DNA of 63,829 nucleotides, the filler included, from Reclinomonas americana ATCC 50394 (Eukaryota): assembly GCA_048213135.1 (NCBI GenBank). It is 17 parts of 17 records of this genome, joined end to end, with 100 filler letters (N's around TTAATTAATTAA, not from the genome) between each part and the next. Parts side by side here need not be neighbours in the genome. Positions count along the whole stretch, not along the records: positions 21,554 to 27,555 come from AFZH01020680.1; positions 27,656 to 33,604 come from AFZH01020681.1; 15 more parts are not named here. The stretch is one strand, 5' to 3'. The notes beneath the pieces were generated by a model that ran no database searches, was not told the origin of the DNA, and saw nothing but the letters and a program-made list of their open reading frames with translations. The position numbers were made by a program, and so were the translations under genes. The number at the start of each line of letters is the position of its first letter. Position 1 is the first letter of the stretch. Shown here in pieces: positions 20,469 through 57,601 of this stretch.

Positions 20469-23400
20469 CTACAACGAAGCGCTCAACTTGCGGGCATCCA
20501 GCGGCACAAAGTCCTTGGGCTCCGGTCCTGCTCAGCACACAAACGACAAAGGTGAGCAGATTGATCTTGATTCCGTACCCCGCCCTTCCCAATCGCACCA
20601 TTGTAGAGCGCCGAGGGCCGAATGAGTCGGTTGTTGGCGCGCTGCTCAATGATGTGCGAGGCCCAGCCGGAGGTGCGGGCCACCACAAACACCGGCGTGA
20701 AGAGATTGGTGGGGATGCCTGCTCCAGCGAGTCAGTAACTCATTCGCCCACAGAAACAAGCGCTCTGCACTCACCGCACTGGTGGTAGGCACTGGCGCAG
20801 TAAAAGTCCAGGTTGGGGAACATCTTCTTCTCGCGGCTCATCACGTGCTCGATGCGCTCGGAGACAGCGTAGAGAGCCGGGCAAGCGCCCTGCTCGGGGC
20901 GGCGCTCCGCCAGCTGGCGCGAGCAGTCCTTGATGATGGTGGTGCGCGGGTCCGAGGTCTTGTAGACGCGATGGCCAAAGCCCATGATCAGCTCCCTCTT
21001 GCGCAGCATTTCCATTACCTGTGACAAGACAGACATCAACACCACATGGGCGAGAGGTGCGGTGGAAGGTGAGAGAGTATTACGCAACGGCAGCCTCGGC
21101 CTCCTCGGCATTCGCAAAGCGCGACACGAGGTGCATGGCGGCCTCGTTGGCGCCGCCGTGCAGCGGGCCGCGAAGGGTGCCAATGGCGGCAGTGATGGAC
21201 GAGTAAAAGTCGGAGAGGGTGGAGGCGGTGACGCGTGCCGAGAAGGTGGATGCTGGGCGGTCAGGGGTATGAGCGGGAGGGGGGATAGGGGGGAGACGGG
21301 AGAGTGCAACTCACCGGCGAATTCGTGCTCAGCGTAGAGAATCAGAGAAATGTCCACCACGCGGACGCAGAGGGCGTCGGGCTGAGCGTCGGCGTGGACA
21401 GTGAGTGAGTGGGGATTGGGGGGGGGGGGGGGGTAGGGGAGGGAGGAGGAGAGNNNNNNNNNNNNNNNNNNNNNNNNNNNNNNNNNNNNNNNNNNNNTTA
21501 ATTAATTAANNNNNNNNNNNNNNNNNNNNNNNNNNNNNNNNNNNNNNNNNNNNAAGCGATGGGGAAGGAGTAGGAGGAGTGACATGGGGGAAGAAAAACG
21601 GACACAAAAGGGAGAGGCTAGGTGAAGACATCGCAGTAGAGCGAAGGCGCACTAATCAACGGAGCAACATGCTGGGAGCGCAGGATAACAGCCGAGACAT
21701 GAATGCCAGTCTCGCCATTTGGAAGACATTGCGTTGGCTCTCACAGCGTTGGCAAGTCGATTTTCGACTGCGGACAGTTCACCCATCACTCACGTAACAC
21801 ACAGAGGGGATGAACGGAAGCAAGTCGAGAAACAAAAGAGAGAGCGGAGCCAAAGAAGACGCTGAGAAAACAGAGAGTCGAGGCGAGAATGGTGGAGGAC
21901 GAAGAAGCTCCCAAAGGAAACGTGCAACGCGAGAAACCGCAATGTTTTTCTCTTCTTCCTTCCCCCTCTTCCTTTTCCCCTCTCTCTCTCTCGGTGAACA
22001 AACCTCCTCGGTTGCTGGCAAGCGCTTCAACAGCTTCATGAAATTGGTAGCAATTGTGTCCTTCTCGTCAGTGCGCGTCTCGATGCGCACACCCGACTCG
22101 TGGTAGTGATGCCAGTACAGCATGATCTGCAACAACAATGTGCTGCATTTTCAGCGACAAAGCAGATGGCAAGCGTAGGCGATGGAGCAGAACTCACCGG
22201 ACCGAAGCGCGCCATCAGACTGTCAGCCACATCGTACTGCGAAGGGAGCGCTGAGAGATAAGCCGGAAAAATATGCAGCGCACTGGCAAATAGAAACTCA
22301 CACACCTGCGACAGACCCTCGTCACTCGACACCAAACGATCAGCATTTTCTGGCTCCGAGCAACCGAGGAACGACGCCGCCGTGCGCAACACGTCCTGAG
22401 AAAGCAAGTAATGAGTGAAAGCAGGAGGGACGGCATGCGAGTGAGTCTCGGTGACTTGGATCAATGGAGAACTCAGGCATCGATTCTCTTCCCACCATCT
22501 ACAACAGTCTCACTGCAAAGCCCTCTGCGACCGCACATTCCCAGCTGGCAACTGTCAAGTACTTACAGCAGGCATCAATTCTCTGCGCAGCCACAGCCGC
22601 ATTCCACAACAAATCTCATTCTCGGTGGTGTGTTGCAAAGACTCGCTCACGCATTCTGCTCAAACCCAGCGACCACCAATCCCATCTCCCAGCTTGCAAA
22701 AGTATTGAGAAGACAGTCGGCAGGGACTCTCTCTGCTTCTTACTGCTTCTGTCTCACAATAGCCCCAGTGATCGTGTCTATCCTCGCTTGCACAACTGGC
22801 ACACTCACTTCAATCACCGATTCGACAGCTCACTCACTTCTCCGCCTCACTGCCAGCATACTTCTGCTAGGCGATGCTCTACAACTCCTGTTGCATCATT
22901 CTCGCTGTGCAGGACTGCACATCCCATCTCCCAACTTGTATCAGTGTAACGCAGAATGCAAGCATGCTTACTCCTTACTCCGCCGGAGCGACAATATACT
23001 CGTAACTTGCAACTCTCATGCTGCATCAGTCTCACTGCCCTCCCGGACCACACGTCACGCTTGCACCACTGTCACGATTGAAGACAGCATGGATTTCTCC
23101 GCAGCTCACTGACCACTCCGCCCAGTGCGACTCACTTCCTACTCGCATCTATGACTCCACATATCGATCCTCTGACACATCAGGAAGCCGAATTCTGCAG
23201 AGCCCCACTGACAACAACCCTATCTCCCAGCTTTCAACAGTGTGTCACGCTGAATGCAAGCACAGACTCTTCTCCCACTACTCTTCATACAGTTCCTGCA
23301 GCTGCATCAGCCTCACTTATCTCCCCGCGCACCCCCTCAACTCCGCGCCCTCTCTCCTTCCCCTTCCATTACGCACCATCGGATGCGACGCCGCCGGCAA

Positions 23401-24194
23401 CAACTCCAGCATATGCCTCAACTCCGGCGACAAGTACCGAAATCGCGCCAATCGCACAATGTACTCGTCCAACTCACTCCGCGTCGGAAGTCGTCCATAC
23501 ACCAACAAGTATGCAATCTCTGCATAAGAACAACACAAACACAAACAAGAAGAGGCCGACATGTCACAACATGCACACAAACAAACTTGCACAAGCACAC
23601 ACACACACACACACACTTGCACTCACTCACACACTCACACACACACACTCACTCACACTCACTCACACTTGCACACACACACTCACACACTCTCACTCTC
23701 TCACACACACGCACTCGCACACACTCACTCACACACTCACTCACTCACTCACTCACACTCTCACACACACTCTCTCTCTTCTCTTTCTCCCTCTCTCTCC
23801 TCTCTCTCCTCTCCCGCCTGCTGCATCAGCTGCTCACCTTCAAAGATGCAGTTGTTTGCCAGATCCTGTGCGCACGCACATGTGAGACACGCATTGCTGC
23901 ATCAGTGTGCCAGTGTGAGCGTGTGACGCAACACTGATGTTGTACCCGCGATAGAGCAAGCCGAGGCCGGCCTGGCCTACAGTGCAGATGCCGGTCTCAC
24001 CAGCAATCACGCCTGCGTGTGTGTGTGTGCGAGTGTGTGTGAGAGAAGAGTGAGAGTGTGAGGGAGAGTGTGTGCGACGTGCCTGCAAGTCCCTTCGAGT
24101 ACGCTGGGGGTGCGGCGGAAGGTGATGCAGCACCGGCCACTGGAGAGGCCACCAGTGGAGTGCTGTCAGAGGAGGAGGCGGAGGAGGAGGCCAT
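20469..24194 (-). CDS. prpC: Bacterial-type 2-methylcitrate synthase / citrate synthase, multi-exon
   Basis: [90 protein letters not shown] and [23 protein letters not shown] closely follow proteobacterial PrpC. Stop TAG at 20471-20469. Confidence 0.9.
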
Positions 24195-25946: not shown

Positions 25947-28900
25947 TCACCTTCTTCCCTTATGCGGCGGAACCACAAATGTGTGGAATCCATATCCTTC
26001 GCCCGCATCCACGCCCTCCACTCGCACGCGGCACACGGGACACTCGCCGCTCTTGTTCGCCAGCCGCTCCGCACACTCCCGACACAACACCTGGTGCATG
26101 CACGGACGCAGTCGCGTCTCGCGCAGTCCGTCGCACACCATGCACGCTCGCCGGCACGACAACACCGTGAGATCGCTCAACTCGCTCGCCAGCTGCTGAG
26201 CGGTCGGACGACGTGCTGGTCGACCGTCCAGGCATCTGCAGATTGACCATGCATGTCAGTCAGCGTGTCTCCTCTCAACTCTCTTGGAGACACACAAACC
26301 TCAGTGCCAATCGCACAATCCTCTCGCACACAGGAGCCGGCCACGGTCGACCGACACCACCGTCGGCCAGTTCCACAGCGGCTTTGAGCAGTGCTTCGCC
26401 ATCGTCGCCATCCTCTATCTCCTCCAGTGCCTCCACTCGTCGATGCACCTCCTCAATCGGCAGGCCGCTGAACACTTGCAGCAGGACGAGACCGAGAGAG
26501 AACACATCCGAACTCAGTCGTAGCTGTCCGTGCATGGCCTTGGGATCGGCGTACTTGGGGTCGCCAGCAAAGTGCACTGACAGATGCGTCTGTGGCACGA
26601 GGAGGGGAAGGGATGAGGGGAGGGGAAGCGAGAGACAGAGCAAGATCTAGAAAACGTTACTCACCCCCTCAGTGCGGAACCAGTGCGCCACTCCCAGGTC
26701 CGAGATGTACGCCATTCCACTGTGGTTGAACAGAATGTTGGCTGGCTTCAGGTCGCGGTGGATCACTGAGAGAGAGAGAGAGAGAGCAAGTGAGTGGAAC
26801 GAAATGAGCAGAGAGTGCAGAGCAGACACGCGTACCATTCTGCGCATCCAAACAAGCGCACAAAATAGACAGGCGTCAGTTAACAACGAGAAGATGAAGC
26901 AAACACACATGCCACATCTCTCACTCACATGCCTGCATCATCAGCAAGAACAATGTGAGTCCGATAGCATGAAGAAGGAAACAAAAAACAACGAGACATG
27001 TGACACGCAACTTGTGCAGGGAGGCAACCGCCTCGGCACATCGCAGCATGCACGTCATTCGTGCCTCAATCGACATGGCTGGCAGTCCACGCTCCGCCCA
27101 CTGCAGCAGTCGGTGCTCCAAGTTGTGCTCACTGCGAATTACGAGGGAGTGAGAACACAAAAAGAAATCTCAGGAAAGACCATGAGATGCGGTGGTGGTC
27201 ATTGATCAAGACAGAGAGACAGAGCAAGACACGTCCAGAATAAATTAGCAGAAAGCACTCTCTCTCTCCCTCTCTCCCCTACGTTTGTCTCGATCGGTCA
27301 CTCTGCATCACACTTCCACCTGCTCATGATCACTCTTCTTTCTTTCTTACTTGCTTTCTCTCTCGCTCACACTCCTTTCTCGCTCCGTTTGTCTCAACAA
27401 TCTCTCAGTTAATGTCAGTCACTCTGCGAAACACCTCCCGTTGCTCAATGCAATATCTTTCTTTCTGTTTTACTCTCTCTCTCTCTCTGCGCTTCCACTA
27501 GTTGTTCTCGTTGCTCTTAACAGTCACTGCTGATACCATCTGTACTCACTCCCTCNNNNNNNNNNNNNNNNNNNNNNNNNNNNNNNNNNNNNNNNNNNNT
27601 TAATTAATTAANNNNNNNNNNNNNNNNNNNNNNNNNNNNNNNNNNNNNNNNNNNNTTGCCGAGAGCGCACACCGTAAGATCACATACATGCTCCCGCCCA
27701 CGCAAATACCCCCTCCTCTCTCTCTCTCTCCCTCTGTTTCCCTCACACTCACCTCATCGCCTCGAGCACCACGCATCGCTTGCCGTCGTCCGACTCCGCA
27801 AATCCAATCAGTGGCACAACACCAGCCACACTCACCGCCTTCAGCTTCTCCAACTGACATGCAACCCGAGTGATGGTGAGTGGAACACATTTTCTCTTTC
27901 TCTCTTCGTCACCATCCCCCACTCTCACCTCATTGGAGAACGACTCGATGCACCACGGCAACGCGCTGTCAAACACCTTGATCGCCACACTCTGTCCGGC
28001 CCACTGCCCACAAAACACCTGACCCTGTCCGCCGGCGCCGCCCAGTCGCTCTGCAAAGTTGCTGCTCATCGACACCACTTGCTCCCACGAAAACGCCGTC
28101 AATGGCGCTGCATTCATCGTCATCAAACAAACAAAGTGAGTTTCCCATCATCATTCTTTCCCCTTCACCTCCTCCTGCTGCCTAACGCACCTCGGTGGGT
28201 GAGATCGCGCTGCACGGCAGCCAGGTCGGCCTCGAGTCGCTGAGCTCTGTCACGCTCGCGCTGTCGCTGCTCATCCACTCGATCCAGTGCCTCCTGCAGC
28301 GCGGTACGCGCGATTTCGTGCTGCTGGAGAGAGGCAGCGTGCTGAGCAATAATGCTCTCGTTGGCCTGCACGCGACATTCCCACTCGCCCATCCTCGCTT
28401 GCTGCTCGTCCAGCTGTCGCTGCAATTCCGCCATTTGTTGCTGCACCCGCTGCACAGATTCCTCCTGTTGTCGCACTCGCTCCTGCCACTCGCTTGCTCG
28501 CTGTCGCCACTCCTCCTGCTCTCGGTGTGCCGCCTCGACCTCCTGCCGCAGCTGCGCGGCGGTATGCTCGTAGTGCTGCACACGCGCCTGCCACTCGCTT
28601 GCCCGCTGCCTTTGTTCCACGAGCTCCTGTTGCACCGCTTCGGGCGGGGGCAGAGCCTGTCCTTGGCCGCCTGCCTGGCCGATGGGGCCACCATTCTCGA
28701 GCGGAGAGTGCGAGGAGGCGGCGACGGATGTTCCGGATGCCTGCGGAAATGCATGCCAGATAAGCGATCGTAAGGCAGAGAAGGCTGGGGTGGACGCCAA
28801 CGAAACAGATGTTCCAGTGGACGATTGAACAGCATCGACAGGCACTGCGACCACAAACACATAAAAAGAGTGAGCAAGGAACAGCCTGAGGTGACAAGAC

Positions 28901-30528
28901 ATGCACTCACCGGCAGAAGAGCCCGACTGGTCCTGTTGCAGCTGTGCCTTCTTCTTCTTCTTCTTCTTGTTCTTCTTCTTCTTCTTCGTTGCCTCTTGGT
29001 CGTGCGGCACTCCTTCCTTGCGCCGGGCTTCCTCAAGAGCTGCACGAACATCTTCCAGCTGCTTCCGATCACTATGTTGTGTCGAGTATCGAGCGCCTAG
29101 CAGCCGCTCCCGCCTGCTCACGATGTGCTCCATCAAGCGCACGGCTTCCTCCAAGTTCTCAATGCCACCGAGTTGGAAGAGATGAAGCGCATGGCACTGG
29201 CTGTCGCGCAGCGTAGTTGGATGATCATCGCCAAGGTCCTCTTGTTGGTGTGGGAGAAGTTCTCGACCGAGTCGAACTGCCTCTTCGTAGTTCCCGCACG
29301 ACCCAAAAGCGAGAGCAAGCTCGTACATAGCCTGCGCCAAAACGACAGGATTCGATACGACCTCGTATGCTCGGTTGAACTCATCCAGTGTCTCGGCAAG
29401 CAGTGCAGCGGCTTCCTCCGCTCGGCCAATCTGGAACATGGCGCGACCAAGTCGTGCCGACACGGAGAGGCTAAGGGAGCTGACAGTGTCTATCTGCTCC
29501 AGCGTATCCTCAAGCAGATCAATGGCCTCCGTCACACTGCTGTCGCCACCGACGGCGAGAAGAAACTCGCTGAGTTCGAATGTGTTGTCAAGTTCATCAG
29601 CACTATAGTCGTCGTCGTAGCCGTTGTCGAGAAACTCACGCTCAGCTGCCACAAACTCGCGCATCATGTCAACTGCCGCCTGGCTGTCGCCGCTGCAGTG
29701 GAGTACACAGGCGAGATCGTGCATCGTATACAGTGTCTCATTGTCGTCTTCTGGCAACACGCGTTTCTGACGCTGCAGAGTGTCACGAAACAGAACAACG
29801 GCTTCGTCGTACCGACCAAGCTCACGCAGTGCGTCACCGAGCCCCCACGCCACCATCAGCGTGGTACTATGGTCCACACCAAGGTGCTTCTGCATTCCTT
29901 GAAGGGCACGCTCAAAGGTAGTCACAGCCTCAGTCAAATTTGCAGTGCCACCGACTTCGACGAGAACTATGGCAAGGCTGCGCAAGGTTTCGCACCTGTC
30001 GACTGCACCCAACACGTGCTTGTCTCGTCGCAGCAAGTCGCGGAGAACTAGGACTGCCTCGTCGTACATGTGGGCTCCCTGCAGCGCCGTCGAGAACCAA
30101 TCCAACACCTTCACCAGAGACACATCGCTCTCTGGCAGAAGGCGTTTCATCTTCTCTGCTGTGGCTCGCAGCAACGCGATACCCTTATTCGGTCGACGGG
30201 TTTCATACAGTAATTTGCCCTGCACGCCCGACGTCAACATCGTCAACACGTGGTCGTCGCCGTACACCCGGCTGTAACGCTCCGACAGCTCCTCAAGCAC
30301 TCGAAGAGAGTGCCCGCGCGCATCTGACAACGCCAGACTCCGCAGCTGCTTCTGTGCAGACGAAATCGTCCACTTTTTGTTGTCGGGGCCGAACAGCTCA
30401 GTAAAGTCGCGCACGCACTCGGCAAAGAGCGACGCCGCCTCGTCGTGCTCTTCGTCTTTCTCGGCCTTCTCTGCCGCAGCGTATCGCTCAGTTGCCGTCG
30501 CCAGTCGCTGACGTTTTCCAGAATCCAT
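25947..30528 (-). CDS. TPR-repeat / coiled-coil / RLK-Pelle(IRAK)-like kinase / RING protein, copy 1
   Basis: About 42-aa TPR_12-type repeats (LGxDHxxTL) and a Q/E-rich coiled coil. The kinase reads FSWEQV..NF.ERLGGAGGQGQVF, VAIK, HRDLKPANIL, DLG, SDVFSLG, WP...LALRC...RRP. The C-terminal RING reads CMVC..PCMH..CREC...CPVC. Confidence 0.85.
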
Positions 30529-30948
30529 AATGTTGGCGTGCGTGAGCGGAAGACAGTATGTGTGTGTGTAAGAGGGTATGTGGTGTGTGTGTGTGTGTGT
30601 GCAAGCGCGTGTGTGTCTTGTGCGGTGGCGGCAATGTCTTCTCTATACTCCTTGTGTGATGACGCAAGCACCCTTCGATGTCTGTGGGACATCGGCGAGA
30701 ATGACTTGGAACACACCGCACATGCCCTTCTGATTCCAAGCAACAGCGCAGTGCGTGCTGTAATGATCACCGACTCGATGGAGATCGCAGCGCAACATAG
30801 ACAAGGAACAAGGAGAGCCAAGTAATGTCGACGTCGGCGAAGCCACTTGCACGGTCTCCGGGAGTCTGCCTGCGTGTCTGCGAACCCACATCCTCTTCCG
30901 CGACTCCATCGCGTCGTACAATACAATAAAAATACAACAATTCATTCT

Positions 30949-33604
30949 TCATCTCCGCGGCGCCGGCGGAGCCACATACGTGTGGAACCCGTATCCCTCG
31001 CCAGCATCCACACCCTCCACTCGCACGCGGCACACGGGACACTCGCCGCTCTTGCTTGCCAGTCGCTCTGCGCACTCCCGACACAACACCTGGTGCATGC
31101 ACGGACGCAGTCGCGTCTCGCGCAGTCCGTCGCACACCATGCACGCCCGCCTACACGACAACACCGTGAGATCACTCAACTCACTCGCCAGCTGCTGAGC
31201 GGTCGGACGGCGTGCTGGTCGACCATCCAGGCATCTGCAGATTGACCATGCATGTCAGTCAGCGTGTCTCCTCTCAACTCTCCTGGAGACACACAAACCT
31301 CAGTGCCAATCGCACAATCCGCTCGCACACGGGAGCCGGCCACGGTCGACCAACGCCACCGTCGGCCAGATTCGCAGCAGCATTGAGCAGTGCTTCGCCA
31401 CCCGCATCGTCCATCTCCTCCAACGCCTCCACTCGTCGATGCACCTCCTCAATCGGTAGACCGCTGAACACTTGCAGCAGGACGAGACCGAGCGAGAACA
31501 CATCCGAACTCGGACGCAGCTGTCCGTGCATGGCCTTGGGATCGGCGTACTTGGGGTCGCCAGCAAAGTGCACTGACAGGTGCGTCTGTGGCACGAAAAA
31601 GGAGAGGGAACTGTGGATTGAGGAAAGGGGAAGGGAGTGACAGGGCAGGAAAGTGTCACTCACCCCCTCGGTGCGGAACCAGTGCGCCACTCCCAGGTCC
31701 GAGATGTACGCCATTCCACTGTGATTGAACAGAATGTTGGCTGGCTTCAGGTCGCGGTGGATCACTGAGAGAGAGTGAGAGAAAGTGAGTGAGTGGAACG
31801 AAATGAGCAGAGAGTGCAGAGCAGACACGCGTACCATTCTGTGGAACCAAACAAGCGCACAGAAAGGCACGAGTTAGTTACCAAGGAGAAATATTACGCA
31901 AACGCATACCTCGTATACTCTCTCTCACTCACATGCCTGCATCATCAGGAGGCACAAAGTGAGTCCGATAGCATGAAGAAGGAAACAACAAACAACCAGG
32001 CATGCGACACACAACTTGTGGAGGGAGGCAACAGCCTCGGCACATCGCAGCATGCACGTCATTCGTGCCTCTATCGACATGGCTGGCAGTCCACGATCCA
32101 CCCACTGCAGCAGTCTGTGCTCCAAGTTGTGTTCACTGTAAATCACGAGAGAGTGAGTGCACATGAATCGACGAATCCCCCCTTCCGGGAGAAAAATAAT
32201 GAGGTGTGGCGGTGGCTATCGGTCAAGACAGAGAGACAGAACAAGTCACATCCAGAATAAACTAGCAGAGAGCACTCTCTCTCTCTCTCACTCTCCTACG
32301 TTTGTCTCGATCAGTCTCTGCATCACACTTCCACCAGCTCACTTTTCTTTCTCTGTCTCTCTCTCGCACTCTTTTCTCTCGTTCTCTCTCTCTCTCAGTC
32401 TCTCGATCTCTCTCTTTCTTTCTCTCTCCCTCCCTCCCTCTCTCTCTCTCTGTTTTCCTTTCTCTCTCTACGTATTCTCAATCAACCTCTCCGCGTCACA
32501 CGTCCACCTTCTCACTGCAATCTCTCTCTCTCCCGCTTCCTCCATCTCCCGCTCTCCCTATCCCTCTCTGTTTCCCTTTCTCTCTCTGTTTCCCTTACAC
32601 ATGCATGCTCCCGCCCAGCAAATCCCCCCTCTCCCTCTCTGTTTCCCTCACACTCACCTCATCGCCTCGAGCACCACACATCGCTTGCCGTCGTCCGACT
32701 CCGCGAACCCAATCAGTGGCACAACACCAGCCACGCTCACCGCCTTGAGCTTCTCCAACTGACATGCAAGCATGAAGAGAGTGAGATGCACACATTTTCT
32801 CTTTCTCTCTTCGTCACCATCCACCACTCTCACCTCATTGGAGAACGACTCGATGCACCACGGCAACGCGCTGTCAAACACCTTGATCGCCACACTCTGT
32901 CCGGCCCACTGCCCGCAGAACACCTGGCCCTGTCCGCCGGCGCCGCCCAGTCGCTCCGCAAAGTTGCTGCTCATCGACACCACTTGCTCCCACGAAAACG
33001 CCGTCAATGGCGCTGCATTCATCATCATCAAACAAACAAAGTGAGTTTCCCATTATCATCGAACTTCCCCTTCCCCTTCTGCCTCATGCACCTCGGTGGG
33101 TGAGATCACGCTGCACGGCGGCCAGATTAGCCTCGAGTCGCTGAGCTCGGTCTCGCTCGCGCTGTCGCTGCTCGTCCACACGATCCAGCGCCTCCTGCAG
33201 CGCAGTGCGCGCGATTTCGTGCTGCTGGAGCGTGGCAGCGTGCTGAGCAATATTGCTCTCGTTGACTTGTGCACGCTGCTGCCACTCGCTCATCCTAGCT
33301 CGCTGCTCGTCCAGCTGTCGCTGCAAGTCCGCCATTTGTTGCTGCACTCGCTGCACAGTCTCCACCTTTTCACGCTTCGCCGCCTCGACCTTCTGCCGCA
33401 TCTGAGCAGTGGTCTGTTCGAGGTCCTGCACACGTGCTTGGCATTCTATTGCCCGCTGTCGCTGTTCCTCAAGCTCCTGCTGCAGTGCACTGGGCTGCGG
33501 CAGAACTTGTCCTTTGCCGGCCTGCTCGTGTGGAGCGCGGGAGGAGGAGAAGGCGGCGGCGACTACGACAACTGGAGGGGAAGATGAACCAGATGCCTGC
33601 GGGG
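30949..33604 (-). CDS. Coiled-coil / kinase / RING protein, tandem copy 2 (5' end lost in gap)
   Basis: Exons and intron positions are near-identical to copy 1 across the kinase and RING. Confidence 0.85.
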
Positions 33605-33704
33605 NNNNNNNNNNNNNNNNNNNNNNNNNNNNNNNNNNNNNNNNNNNNTTAATTAATTAANNNNNNNNNNNNNNNNNNNNNNNNNNNNNNNNNNNNNNNN
33701 NNNN

Positions 33705-55460: not shown

Positions 55461-57601
55461 GATCTGTGTGTTCCGGACTTTGTGCTTTGCGCCAGCGAGT
55501 TGCACCACCTGTGTCGGTGAGTGAAAAAGAGCAGTGTGCTCCGTGCTGGCTTCCTGACCAGTGTGACGCGCAGTGAGCACGTGACGGAGGCTGAAGTCGA
55601 TTTGTGTGGCGATGGGAGAGTCACATCGCTGGCCACGCTCAAGGAGGCCTCGCGACGGAACCACATATCATATGGCAATGTCAAAGTTATGCGTTCTTGC
55701 TGTCCGCCGTGCAAGTCGCCAGTGATGTTGACATGATGAAACACCACATGTACAGGTCACATGCCCGCGGTGCCTCACACTCATGGTATGCAATGATAGA
55801 AACGTCACTGATCCATACACTACAATGAGCATCTGCCAATGATCGCCAACAAGTCTCGTGTGCTTTCTTTCTAAATGTTGTCACGGAGAGTTGATTTTGT
55901 TGTTCTGCTCTCTCTCGCTCTCTCTCTCTCTCTCACTCTCTCTCTCTCTCACTCACCTCACTGTTGGATAAACAGACGGTGGGCGACTATTACCGCACAC
56001 ATGGCCCGTCGCAGTGCCCGCGTGCATGTGAGAGGTGTGGAGAGCAGATGACTCCGGATCACATGGCGGAGCATGAGTGGAGTGGATGCTTGCGGGAGTG
56101 CCCGCTCGGATGTGGAGCGAGGATGGCGCTGAGTGAGTTGATGGAGCACAGCAGGAGTGGGTGCATGCGAGCGTGTCCGCGTGGGTGTCAGCAGCAGTGT
56201 TTACTGGCGGATATGCAGCGGCATCTTGGTGAGCGCTGGGGAGGAGAGAGATGTGTGACATGACATTGATGTGGTGACTCTTCTTCACTTGTTGTGGCAG
56301 AGACCGAGTGCCGACAGCAAAAGACAGCGTGCCGTGGTGGTGAACTGGAGTGTGGATGGCGCGGTGTTGTTGACGAGAAGGAGGAGCATGAGCGAGTGTG
56401 CGATGTGCTGCGAGTGGAGCGGCCACTGCGTGAGGTGAGCTGGAATGATGAGCGGTGGATGCTGCTGGTCTTTCATGCAGTTGTGTTTGTGGGCACAGCT
56501 GCATGGCCGAGTGCAAGAGCTCTCTCAGCTGGTGGTTCAGGAGAGAGAGGCGAGGCGAGTGACTGATGAGCGACTGGTCGATTGTATGGGGCTGCTTGTC
56601 GAGTGTCGCCAGCAACTTGCAGAAGAGCGACAGGCGAGGCAAGCAGAGATTCAGGCGACTCGTGAGCAACTCGCCACGTACTCTGAACAGCTTGGATCAG
56701 AGCAACAATTGCGTGAGGCAGTCGACAAAGGATTGGCTGAGGTCTGTTGTGATGGGTTTGATGTTTACGTCTCTCCTCCCAACTCATTCTTGATCATCTG
56801 CAGCTACTCACCCATTTCGCGATCGGAACACTGGAGTTTCATGTACGAGCAAACCAGAAGCAGGAACGAGAGGCAATTGAACGCGAGCGGCAGGCCAGAG
56901 AGCAGGAGGAGCGTGAGCGGGAGGAGCGAAAGCTGCAGACCAGGGAACGCAAAGACCGCGAAATGACGGAGGAGAAGGTCATTGACAGCGACCTGCTGAG
57001 TGCAGCCGATGGACGAGTGGTGCTGGAGTGGGTGCAGCAAGCGCGAGGAGGCGATGGTGGGAGTGTGCCCAAGTTGACGTTGCTGTTCAAGGGCAGTCGA
57101 GATGGATTTGCAGGATGCGCATTTCATGGTCTATGTGACAAGCGCGGGTGAGTGATTCAGAAATGAGGGAGAAGGTGCTTGTAGTGCGCGATGACTGATG
57201 AATGAGTGGCTGTGCATAGCGCGACGCTGACAGTGATCAAATCGTCGACGGGACGAGTGTGCGGTGGATACACGCCTGTGCCGTGGCAGTCTCGTGGGAT
57301 ATGGGGCGCCGATCCTTCTGGCACCAGTTTTCTATTCTCGGCGTCGCGGAGTGGTGCGAGTGCGCGAAGATTTGCGCTGAAGGCCGATGGGAAAAGGCAT
57401 GCCGTCTACCACTACTATGATTATGGGCCCAACTTCGCCGGTGGGGACCTTGTATTGTGTGAGTATTGCAATACCAATAGCAACAGCTACAGCGACCCTC
57501 GTTTGTACCAGAGCACCGACGGTGGAGCATTTGACAAGAAGACGCTGATGGGAAAGAGGAACTTCCAAGTGGCAGACTTCGAAGTCTTTCTTGTTGAGTG
57601 A
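55461..57601 (+). CDS. TRAF-like zinc finger / coiled-coil / TLDc protein, copy 1 (5'-partial)
   Basis: Repeated CPxGC...EH...C fingers and GCGWRG...EHERVC. The TLDc domain reads LLFKGSRDGF...FHGLCDKRGATLTVIKS.GRVCGGYT..W...D.SFLFS...GPNF.GGDL...FQVADFEVF. Confidence 0.85.

What the first reader, a model, noticed from the sequence alone, without database searches (positions are those of the whole stretch)
26765..27011. Two consecutive 4-nt microexons build the kinase catalytic-loop entry (copy 1)
On the minus strand, CAC AA|GTTGCG..CAG|GCAT|GTGAGT..CAG|AATG|GTACGC..CAG|TG ATC CAC CGC GAC gives LHK-H-N-VIHRDLKP, a textbook kinase sequence. The microexons are 26932-26929 and 26839-26836. Skipping either or both frameshifts just before HRD and removes the catalytic loop and RING. 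This could act as a splicing on/off switch that leaves a TPR/coiled-coil-only product (inference). Gene predictors would probably call this a pseudogene.
Basis: partly seen in the sequence, partly recalled or inferred. Interest (0 to 1): 0.75.

Follow-up and report, generated by a model that had tools for sequence, protein, structure and literature searches.

The report
Two 4-base exons in a kinase gene
A protist-like kinase gene, present as two tandem copies, most likely needs two back-to-back 4-base exons to keep its reading frame into the catalytic loop; this is a rare but known kind of gene structure that automatic annotation tends to miss.

Summary
On the minus strand the exon ending ..CACAA (27012) is followed by a 79-nt intron, GCAT (26932-26929), an 89-nt intron, AATG (26839-26836), a 70-nt intron, then TGATCCACCGCGAC (from 26765). 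This reads LHKHNVIHRD. A paralogue 5 kb away has the same structure.

No RNA data could be obtained, so the splice path is inferred. The support:
- Both copies are under strong purifying selection on both sides of the junction (dN/dS 0.03 and 0.02). An in-frame path must therefore be used.
- Of 691 (copy 1) and 1034 (copy 2) stop-free in-frame GT/GC-AG paths, the two-microexon path scores best against kinase profiles in both copies.
- All 26 internal signal bases are identical between the copies, against 17.8% divergence of the intron interiors.
- Only 2 of 3000 shuffles gave any in-frame path through two strong internal exons.
- The odd first donor, GTTGCG, is also the homology-best donor of two introns in the neighbouring citrate-synthase-family gene.

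Rivals remain: an 8-nt single exon, a single 241-nt intron (LHKLLIHRD), or use of one microexon only. The "on/off switch" idea is untested. This is a new member of a known kind, the constitutive coding microexon. I put about 0.72 on both microexons being used.

The parts
28191..30528 (-). Copy 1, exon 1: ATG, TPR repeats and coiled coil. Ends ..CACCGAG before donor GTGCGT.
   Evidence: Open frame 28165-30642. TPR_12 E 3.8e-27 and TPR_10 E 2.4e-19. Exon end read.
27929..28107 (-). Copy 1, kinase exon Ea (glycine loop, VAIK lysine).
   Evidence: Coordinates and translation.
27753..27853 (-). Copy 1, kinase exon Eb (helix C to hinge). The intron that follows spans the contig linker at 27556-27655.
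   Evidence: Linker.
27012..27131 (-). Copy 1, exon Ec: SEHNLEHRLL...CAEAVASLH-K(AA). Ends ..CACAA.
26933..27011 (-). Intron 1, 79 nt, donor GTTGCG, ACTCAC branch-like motif, acceptor CAG.
   Evidence: The same donor hexamer is the homology-best donor at 23932 and 21088.
26929..26932 (-). Microexon 1, GCAT. With the preceding AA|G it gives K and H.
   Evidence: Identical in copy 2.
26840..26928 (-). Intron 2, 89 nt, donor GTGAGT, branch-like AACTGAC (AACTAAC in copy 2), acceptor CAG.
26836..26839 (-). Microexon 2, AATG. Gives N and the first base of V.
   Evidence: Identical in copy 2.
26766..26835 (-). Intron 3, 70 nt, donor GTACGC, ACTCAC motif, CT tract, acceptor CAG.
26665..26765 (-). Copy 1, exon Ed: (V)IHRDLKPANILF...DLG...WFRTEG, covering the catalytic loop and the start of the activation segment.
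   Evidence: Pkinase E 6.5e-08, 32.7 bits against a cut-off of 31.7..
26300..26589 (-). Copy 1, exon Ee: kinase C-lobe.
   Evidence: Nearest solved chain is IRAK4, E 1.4e-07.
25947..26235 (-). Copy 1, exon Ef: end of the kinase, RING finger, stop codon at 25947-25949.
   Evidence: zf-C3HC4_3 E 2.3e-10..
27006..27007 (-). Alternative donor. The GT of TTGC|GTGTCA starts at 27006 on the minus strand. Spliced directly to 26765 it is in frame and gives LHKLLIHRD.
31933..31936 (-). Copy 2, microexon 1, GCAT.
31835..31838 (-). Copy 2, microexon 2, AATG.
31664..32135 (-). Copy 2, exon Ec (32135-32016), introns of 79, 94 and 70 nt, and exon Ed (31764-31664).

Best explanation
The locus is a working eukaryotic gene of about 1141 codons: TPR repeats, coiled coil, an IRAK/Pelle-like protein kinase and a RING finger. 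It is present as two tandem paralogues.

Between the end of helix E (..SLHK) and the catalytic loop (VIHRD), the coding sequence is cut by three ordinary short GT-AG introns of 79, 89 and 70 nt. These lie so close together that the exons left between them are only 4 nt each (GCAT and AATG).

I infer that both microexons are constitutive. Each short intron would be recognised as a unit (intron definition) through its own donor, branch-like CT[C/G]AC motif, pyrimidine tract and CAG. The three would probably be removed one after another, because a 4-nt exon is too short to hold 3' and 5' splice-site factors at once.

The result is the canonical spacing L-H-x-x-x-[V/I]-[V/I]-H-R-D. The precise first donor could be 3 nt further downstream in copy 2; both microexons would still be used.

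Shown: the sequence, the open frame, selection on both sides of the junction, and the ranking of paths. Inferred: that the mRNA uses this path, and the order of splicing.
For: 1. An in-frame path must exist. Between the copies, the kinase exons Ea-Ed differ by 16 synonymous and 2 non-synonymous changes (dN/dS 0.034). The RING exon downstream of the junction differs by 17 and 1 (0.016).

2. I scored all GT/GC..AG paths with at most 3 introns of at least 40 nt: 691 stop-free in-frame paths in copy 1 and 1034 in copy 2. Scoring used kinase profiles built only from database hits (26 + 52 domains).
- The two-microexon path ranks 1st in both copies with the pooled profile (175.9 and 175.6 bits) and with set 1.
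- With set 2 it ranks 2nd in copy 1 (0.1 bit behind) and 1st in copy 2.
- The single-intron path scores 167.4 and 167.1, ranks 78 and 88.

3. Only 27 junction peptides are obtainable in both copies, and this one scores best.

4. The closest relatives by the C-lobe, P0047 and P0050, read ..AIHAHKFIHRD and ..TIHAHNIVHRD. That is the same spacing and the same H-N as the microexons encode.

5. Signals:
- The internal donors are GTGAGT and GTACGC, and all acceptors are CAG.
- Each intron has a CT[C/G]AC motif 20-40 nt upstream of its acceptor.
- 2 of 3000 shuffles gave any in-frame path via two strong internal exons.

6. All 26 internal signal bases are identical between the copies, while intron interiors differ at 39 of 219 columns (P = 0.006).

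7. Intron lengths of 79, 89 and 70 nt match the other short introns resolved here: 75, 75 and 64 nt in this gene, and 67, 70, 62 and 56 nt in the neighbouring gene.

8. The weak-looking first donor GTTGCG is the homology-best donor of two introns of the neighbouring citrate-synthase-family gene, at 23932 and 21088. In both cases the runners-up listed were GC donors or scored far lower.
Against: - There is no transcript evidence. No RNA run was listed, and no relative close enough to compare gene structure was found.
- Score margins over some rivals are small: 2.4 bits over the donor+3 variant, 3 to 5 bits over the path using microexon 2 only, and 4.3 bits over the single 8-nt exon.
- The first donor differs between the copies (GTTGCG and GTTGTG) and matches the usual consensus only at GT.
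- Intron identity between the copies is very uneven (72% to 98%), so the conservation test is only approximate. Gene conversion could also preserve the signals.
- Relatives of the wider RLK/Pelle group tolerate insertions of 2 to 6 residues at this spot, so spacing alone does not exclude the longer variants.
Confidence: 0.72

Rival explanations
1. One 8-nt microexon. The first microexon uses the tandem donor 4 nt downstream (GCATGTGA|GTGAGA, donor at 26924) and splices directly to 26765, skipping AATG. This gives LHKHVMIHRD, which also has the canonical 5-residue spacing.
For: The path is in frame, free of stops and available in both copies. Its donor is good (GTGAGA). It scores 171.6 and 171.4 bits, ranks 17 and 11.
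Against: - It scores 4.3 bits below the two-microexon path.
- The upstream GTGAGT is the better donor.
- It needs a 159-nt intron, whereas the other short introns are 56-89 nt.
- It leaves the fully conserved CAG-AATG-GTACGC and its branch-like motif unexplained.
Confidence: 0.07
2. No microexons. A single 241-nt intron (246 nt in copy 2) runs from donor TTGC|GTGTCA (27006) to 26766, giving LHKLLIHRD, one residue shorter than usual. The AG-N4-GT sites inside it are chance.
For: The path is in frame in both copies. The C/T difference at the last exon base would be synonymous. It is the simplest model, and a gene predictor might well pick it.
Against: - It scores 8.5 bits below the top path, ranks 78 and 88.
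- A 4-residue spacing has no clear example among the 78 related kinase domains. By the nearest-His rule 30 have 5 residues. The 2 listed as 4, and 3 of the 7 listed as 3, carry a second His and read as 5 by my reading of the printed strings. The rest carry insertions.
- Two strong internal exons arise in only 2 of 3000 shuffles.
- The 26 internal signal bases would have no reason to be conserved (P = 0.006).
- The donor GTGTCA is not among the donors resolved here.
Confidence: 0.07
3. One 4-nt microexon only. Donor CGT|GTCACA (27004) plus AATG gives LHKLRNVIHRD (LHKLCNVIHRD in copy 2), a one-residue insertion.
For: The path is in frame in both copies. It scores 172.9 and 170.3 bits, ranks 8 and 20. 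Insertions at this spot occur in related kinases.
Against: - The junction peptide would differ between the copies (R and C), although the kinase core is otherwise almost identical.
- The donor is poor.
- The perfectly conserved CAG-GCAT-GTGAGT would go unused.
- The intron would be 165-170 nt.
Confidence: 0.04
4. Regulated switch. Inclusion of the two microexons is conditional. Skipping gives a premature stop and either a TPR/coiled-coil/N-lobe fragment or mRNA decay.
For: Skipping either microexon creates an immediate TGA, and skipping both shifts the frame. A +5 donor offers an in-frame bypass.
Against: Nothing observed here bears on regulation. From general knowledge (recalled), genomes with short introns that use intron definition mostly show intron retention, and cassette-exon skipping is rare in them. 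Every multi-intron gene is 'switchable' in this trivial sense.
Confidence: 0.1
5. Decaying pseudogenes whose kinase frame is broken at this point.
For: A naive join of the two long flanking exons is out of frame.
Against: dN/dS is 0.034 upstream of the junction and 0.016 downstream, at dS of 0.15 to 0.33. Both copies keep a complete open frame from ATG to stop under the microexon model.
Confidence: 0.02

Closest known systems
Constitutive coding microexons of plants, 1-15 nt (Yu et al. 2022, Nat Commun 13:820, PMC8831610; passages read through 'find')
   Same: - Very short exons (1-15 nt) lie between ordinary GT-AG introns inside conserved protein-coding regions and are needed to keep the frame.
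- They are usually missed or misannotated.
- A size-4 cluster (RECQ3) is reported.
- Two adjacent microexons (5 and 12 nt, Peptidase M1, validated by RT-PCR in rice) are reported.
   Different: - Here two 4-nt exons are consecutive, and neither is a multiple of 3.
- The host is not a plant by any evidence here: the nearest proteins are only 27-67% identical.
- There is no RNA support and no cross-species conservation, only two paralogues.
Neuronal alternative microexons of animals, 3-27 nt (abstract of PMC8378409 in the search listing; the wider literature is recalled)
   Same: Tiny exons that challenge the splicing machinery and alter protein surfaces.
   Different: Those are mostly multiples of 3, alternatively included, lie in long introns and depend on dedicated regulators. 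These are 4 nt, set the frame, lie between 70-89-nt introns and are probably constitutive.
Microexons as short as 3 nt reported in the dinoflagellate Amphidinium carterae (PMC12584245; passages read)
   Same: A protist genome with tandem gene arrays in which microexons hinder annotation.
   Different: That paper describes them in general terms only. I saw no kinase example and no pair of 4-nt exons in the passages. All splice sites here are canonical GT-AG.
IRAK4 / Pelle / plant receptor-like kinases (TKL group)
   Same: - The C-lobe exon matches IRAK4 chains best (E 1.4e-07), then SymRK.
- The nearest database relatives carry ..IHAH[K/N][F/I][I/V]HRD.
- The kinase has HRDLKPAN, DLG and a GDPKYADP-type P+1 region.
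   Different: The architecture is TPR, coiled coil, kinase, RING. No death domain or receptor part was seen. Identity is only about 36-45% over about 50 residues.

Membership tests
Coding microexon (15 nt or less) in the sense of PMC8831610 | Exon of 15 nt or less, flanked on both sides by spliceosomal introns with canonical ends | tested here: met
   GCAT and AATG each lie between ..CAG and GT... The flanking introns are 79, 89 and 70 nt.
Coding microexon (15 nt or less) in the sense of PMC8831610 | Needed to keep the reading frame and the conserved protein motif | tested here: met
   With both microexons the frame is open for 1141 codons. Skipping either gives a stop. This path is the best kinase-profile path of 691 and 1034.
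Coding microexon (15 nt or less) in the sense of PMC8831610 | Junction-spanning transcript reads | not testable with these tools
Coding microexon (15 nt or less) in the sense of PMC8831610 | Position and phase conserved in homologues | tested here: inconclusive
   Conserved in the 2 paralogues, with 0 differences in 26 internal signal bases. No orthologue was found: 598 pattern matches, 0 confirmed; 0 matches; best 36% identity.
Protein kinase domain (Pfam PF00069) | Profile match above the curated cut-off, with catalytic HRD..N and DFG-type motifs | tested here: met
   The stretch holding exon Ed scores 32.7 bits against a cut-off of 31.7, E 6.5e-08. Exon Ed alone scores 30.8 bits, just under the cut-off. 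The spliced model shows GxGxxG, VAIK, HRDLKPAN and DLG. My own profiles score it 175.9 bits.
IRAK/Pelle/RLK-like kinases (TKL group) | Closest similarity to IRAK/Pelle/RLK catalytic domains | tested here: inconclusive
   The best solved match for one 96-aa exon is IRAK4 at E 1.4e-07, then SymRK at 0.0012. No tree was built.
RING finger (Pfam PF13920, zf-C3HC4_3) | Profile match above the cut-off | tested here: met
   40.5 bits against a cut-off of 27, E 2.3e-10.
TPR_12 / TPR_10 repeats | Profile match above the cut-off | tested here: met
   TPR_12 scores 94.7 bits against 30.1. TPR_10 scores 69.1 bits against 27.5.
Regulated (alternative) microexons of the animal neuronal type | Length a multiple of 3, so that both isoforms stay in frame, with condition-dependent inclusion | tested here: not met
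   Each exon is 4 nt. Skipping one or both gives premature stops. Inclusion levels could not be measured.

The most novel reading that the evidence does not exclude
The pair of 4-nt exons is a conserved, regulated frame-setting device. Full inclusion makes the active kinase-RING protein. Skipping makes an immediate stop, leaving a TPR/coiled-coil/N-lobe fragment or causing decay. The donor 5 nt downstream gives an in-frame isoform with a catalytic-loop entry one residue shorter. One short stretch would then encode three outcomes in both paralogues.
Probability: 0.08. Interest if true: 0.65.

Novelty: new member of a known kind. Interest (0 to 1): 0.4.

Why it matters
If transcripts confirm it, this would be a clean example outside plants and animals of two consecutive 4-nt exons, neither a multiple of 3, in the core of a catalytic domain.

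- It would illustrate how far intron definition can shrink exons.
- It would be a concrete test case for annotation pipelines. They would otherwise output a wrong catalytic-loop entry or a broken gene, and this whole kinase-RING family in a poorly sampled eukaryote could be mis-modelled.
- It also flags GTTGCG as a usable donor in this organism.

It does not open a new mechanism.

Tried and rejected
- **RNA evidence.** No RNA holder was listed for window:25940-33604.
- **Whole genome.** None is held.
- **Related loci.**
  - The metagenome scan with the C-lobe exon gave 598 pattern matches and 0 confirmed relatives.
  - An exact-pattern scan for the two-microexon arrangement gave 0 matches.
- **Close homologues.**
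  - TPR exon: 45 proteins at E <= 1e-5 among 8000 candidates, best 27% identity.
  - C-lobe exon against 1.84 billion representatives: 46 hits at E <= 0.001, best 36% identity.
- **Taxon.** An exon of the neighbouring citrate-synthase-family gene gave a best identity of 65-67% and no close named relative. I did not pursue the source further.
- **Earlier findings of this scan.** Nothing by place or by sequence. The word search returned one unrelated note.
- **Origin of the three introns by duplication.** Rejected. Local alignment scores were reached by 18, 108 and 120 of 300 shuffles.
- **Overall enrichment of GTTGCG.** Not seen: 47 observed against 41 expected.
- **Pfam on 28 long stop-to-stop ORFs elsewhere in the window.** 0 of 28 had a family at E <= 0.001.
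- **Paths rejected as main models.**
  - Donor 26997 (GC in copy 2), LHKLRVTLIHRD: rank 74 in copy 1. The copy 2 equivalent (LHKLCVALIHRD) ranks 73.
  - Retention of any of the three introns gives a stop.
- **Heuristic His-to-HRD spacing count.** It mis-assigns domains that have a second His, so I rely on the profile scores instead.
Full report
**What is there**

| Element | Coordinates | Length | Ends |
|---|---|---|---|
| Exon Ec | ends at 27012 | – | ..CTG CAC AA |
| Intron 1 | 27011-26933 | 79 nt | GTTGCG..CAG |
| Microexon 1 | 26932-26929 | 4 nt | GCAT |
| Intron 2 | 26928-26840 | 89 nt | GTGAGT..CAG |
| Microexon 2 | 26839-26836 | 4 nt | AATG |
| Intron 3 | 26835-26766 | 70 nt | GTACGC..CAG |
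| Exon Ed | starts at 26765 | – | TG ATC CAC CGC GAC |

Joined, this reads ..SLH-K-H-N-V-I-HRDLKPAN.

A six-frame motif search finds only two HRDLK sites in the window, at 26760 and 31759, both on the minus strand. The second belongs to a paralogue with the same structure, with microexons at 31936-31933 and 31838-31835.

**Context**

The window is not one continuous molecule. It holds 32 runs of 44 N in 16 pairs, each pair flanking TTAATTAATTAA, which means 17 contigs joined by linkers.

The gene nevertheless continues sensibly across the linker at 27556-27655. The neighbouring citrate-synthase-family gene continues across the linker at 21454-21553. The contigs therefore seem to be in genomic order.

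The gene has these parts:
- One long exon with TPR_12 and TPR_10 repeats and a coiled coil (28191-30528).
- Kinase exons Ea, Eb, Ec, Ed and Ee.
- A last exon with a C3HC4 RING finger.

The Pfam evidence is TPR_12 E 3.8e-27, Pkinase E 6.5e-08 (32.7 bits against a cut-off of 31.7) and zf-C3HC4_3 E 2.3e-10. With both microexons, the copy 1 CDS is 3423 nt, or 1141 codons. That length is my sum of the exon coordinates. The frame is open through the kinase and RING exons to the stop, and exon 1 is a single open frame.

The other introns of this gene start GTGCGT, GTGAGA, GTGAGT, GTGAGT and GTTTGT. One is about 520 nt and purine-rich. The others measured are 75, 75 and 64 nt, and the first, read, is about 85 nt. 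Each has a CT[C/G]AC-like motif about 20-40 nt before the CAG.

**The genes are functional, so an in-frame path must be used**

Between the two copies the exons are 93.4% identical (1006 of 1077 columns) and the introns 84% (396 of 471). The exon differences are almost all silent:

| Region | Synonymous | Non-synonymous | dN/dS |
|---|---|---|---|
| Ea-Ed (upstream of and across the junction) | 16 | 2 | 0.034 |
| RING exon (downstream) | 17 | 1 | 0.016 |

Both reading frames, before and after the junction, have therefore been translated since the duplication. This excludes the pseudogene reading.

**Which path**

I enumerated every path through the junction that uses any GT or GC donor and any AG acceptor, with at most three introns of at least 40 nt. 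This gave 691 stop-free in-frame paths in copy 1 and 1034 in copy 2.

I scored each complete kinase domain against profiles built only from database kinases. Set 1 holds 26 domains from the hits, and set 2 holds 52 domains from the hits.

The two-microexon path ranks as follows:
- First in both copies with the pooled profile (175.9 and 175.6 bits).
- First in both copies with set 1.
- Second in copy 1 (0.1 bit behind) and first in copy 2 with set 2.

Because the kinase core is almost identical between the copies, the junction peptide should be the same in both. Only 27 junction peptides are obtainable in both copies. Their order is:

| Junction peptide | Path | Bits (copy 1 / copy 2) |
|---|---|---|
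| LHKHNVIHRD | two microexons | 175.9 / 175.6 |
| LHKLHNVIHRD | same microexons, donor 3 nt downstream (a GC donor in copy 1) | 173.5 / 173.2 |
| LHKHVMIHRD | one 8-nt exon, GCATGTGA | 171.6 / 171.4 |
| LHKLLIHRD | tenth: single 241/246-nt intron | 167.4 / 167.1 |

The protein profile knows nothing of splice signals. Even so, the path it prefers is the one with the strongest signals.

**Relatives**

Nothing close exists in the databases searched:
- The TPR exon's best hit is 27% identical.
- The C-lobe exon's best hits among 1.84 billion representatives are P0047 and P0050, at 36-37% identity with E 2.4e-19 and 2.6e-10.

Those two read ..CAEALAAIHAHKFIHRD and ..CAKALATIHAHNIVHRD, against ..CAEAVASLHKHNVIHRD here. 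The helix end and the spacing are the same, and H-N sits where the microexons put it.

Among the 78 related domains, 30 have exactly five residues between the nearest upstream His and HRD by a crude rule. The 2 scored as four, and 3 of the 7 scored as three, have a second His and read as five by my inspection. The rest carry insertions of 7-11 residues, as in receptor-like kinases. So a deletion (the single-intron model) has no clear precedent, while insertions do.

The nearest solved structure for the C-lobe exon is IRAK4 (E 1.4e-07), followed by SymRK.

**Chance and conservation**

- CAG-N4-GT[AG][AC]G occurs 25 times on the two strands of the window, four of them here.
- In 3000 dinucleotide-preserving shuffles of the intron core, with the donor zone and the last 30 nt held fixed, the results were:
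  - 306 offered some in-frame path through at least one strong internal exon.
  - 2 offered a path through two or more.
  - 51 gave the five-residue spacing.
  - 0 gave that spacing through two exons.
- Between the copies, the interiors of the three introns differ at 39 of 219 aligned columns (17.8%).
- The 8 microexon bases and the 18 adjacent internal splice-site bases show 0 differences (P = 0.006).
- Counting all 35 signal and microexon bases there is 1 difference, at position +5 of the first donor (P = 0.009).
- The branch-like motif of intron 2 changes from AACTGAC to AACTAAC, which keeps the consensus.
- Caveat: intron identity is uneven (72% to 98%), so these P values are rough.

**The weak first donor**

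Every model has to leave exon Ec through a poor donor, because CACAAGTTGCGTGTCACATGTCTCG holds no consensus site. The donor the microexon model needs, GTTGCG, turned out to be used elsewhere.

I enumerated junction paths in the neighbouring citrate-synthase-family gene (24016 to 20487, minus strand) and scored them against a profile of 104 homologues:
- The best donors of two introns are AGT|GTTGCG (23932; 49.8 bits against 43.7 for the next path) and GCC|GTTGCG (21088; 245.3 against 240.4).
- At 21088 all four listed runners-up are GC donors.
- At 23932 three are GC donors, and the one GT alternative scores 34.5.
- Two control junctions gave GTGAGT.
- The intron lengths there are 67, 70, 62 and 56 nt.

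GTTGCG is not enriched overall (47 observed, 41 expected). It is a tolerated donor, not a dominant class.

**Mechanism (inferred)**

Three ordinary short introns sit within 8 coding bases of one another. In a genome whose introns are mostly 55-90 nt, each intron is presumably recognised as a unit, so exon length matters little.

A 4-nt exon cannot hold U2AF at its AG and U1 at its GT simultaneously. This follows from established knowledge of splice-site recognition. The introns are therefore probably removed one after another.

The three introns are not detectably similar to each other. Alignment scores were reached by 18, 108 and 120 of 300 shuffles. There is thus no sign that they arose by duplication.

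- Skipping microexon 1 gives HKM-stop, skipping microexon 2 gives HKH-stop, and skipping both gives a stop after 32 or 79 residues. Retaining any of the three introns also gives a stop. The frameshift statement is therefore correct. The truncated product would still include the kinase N-lobe.
- Whether skipping is ever used as a switch cannot be judged without RNA data. I give it about 0.1.
- The statement that predictors would call a pseudogene overlooks the in-frame single-intron path.

**Comparison with what is known**

- Coding microexons of 1-15 nt that keep the frame in conserved domains and are widely misannotated are documented in plants. The examples include a 4-nt cluster and an adjacent 5-nt + 12-nt pair validated by RT-PCR (PMC8831610, passages).
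- Microexons as short as 3 nt are reported in a dinoflagellate (PMC12584245, passages).
- Animal neuronal microexons are alternative and mostly multiples of three (PMC8378409, abstract in the listing).
- My three literature searches turned up no report of two consecutive 4-nt exons at a kinase catalytic-loop entry. They cover only the held library.

This is therefore a new member of a known kind.

**What remains open**

No RNA run was listed, no whole genome is held and no related locus was found. The splice path therefore rests on indirect evidence.

| Reading | Probability |
|---|---|
| Both microexons used in the main mRNA | about 0.72 |
| Single 8-nt exon | 0.07 |
| Single long intron | 0.07 |
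| One microexon only | 0.04 |
| Pseudogene | 0.02 |

Noticed in passing
whole window; e.g. 27556-27655, 21454-21553, 33605-33704: The window is 17 contigs joined by 16 linkers of 44 N + TTAATTAATTAA + 44 N, which puts stops in all six frames. Two genes continue sensibly across linkers, so the contigs appear to be in genomic order.
   Followed up: partly
24016-20487, minus strand: A citrate/2-methylcitrate-synthase-family gene (best hits 65-67% identical) is split into at least 10 short exons. Two of its introns use the non-consensus donor GTTGCG (23932, 21088). One intron of about 300 nt is almost pure GT/GA microsatellite.
   Followed up: partly
28191-29000 compared with 33084-33600, minus strand: The coiled-coil region of the two paralogues has diverged strongly at the protein level, including an extra heptad-like block in copy 1. 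The kinase and RING parts are almost identical in protein but differ at silent sites, which points to different selective regimes within one gene.
   Followed up: no
27752-27132 and 32657-32136, minus strand: The intron between kinase exons Eb and Ec is about 520 nt of purine-rich (GA)n-like low complexity. It is the only long intron of the gene, and copy 1's assembly gap falls inside it.
   Followed up: no
55963, 19037, 12788 (minus strand) and others listed: There are further CAG-N4-GT[AG][AC]G sites with good flanks, for example CAACAG|TGAG|GTGAGT at 55963. They could be other 4-nt exons or simply acceptors followed by GT. The one at 22308 lies at an ordinary exon end of the citrate-synthase-family gene.
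   Followed up: no
P0047, P0050 (database proteins): The nearest kinase relatives are database proteins with 3-5 repeated partial kinase domains, and MORN repeats in P0047. They look like fused gene models of tandem kinase arrays in another eukaryote.
   Followed up: no
28 long ORFs across the window: None of the 28 stop-to-stop ORFs of 240 aa or more that I tested outside the two studied genes has a Pfam family at E <= 0.001. Long open frames here are mostly not exons, and real exons are short.
   Followed up: partly
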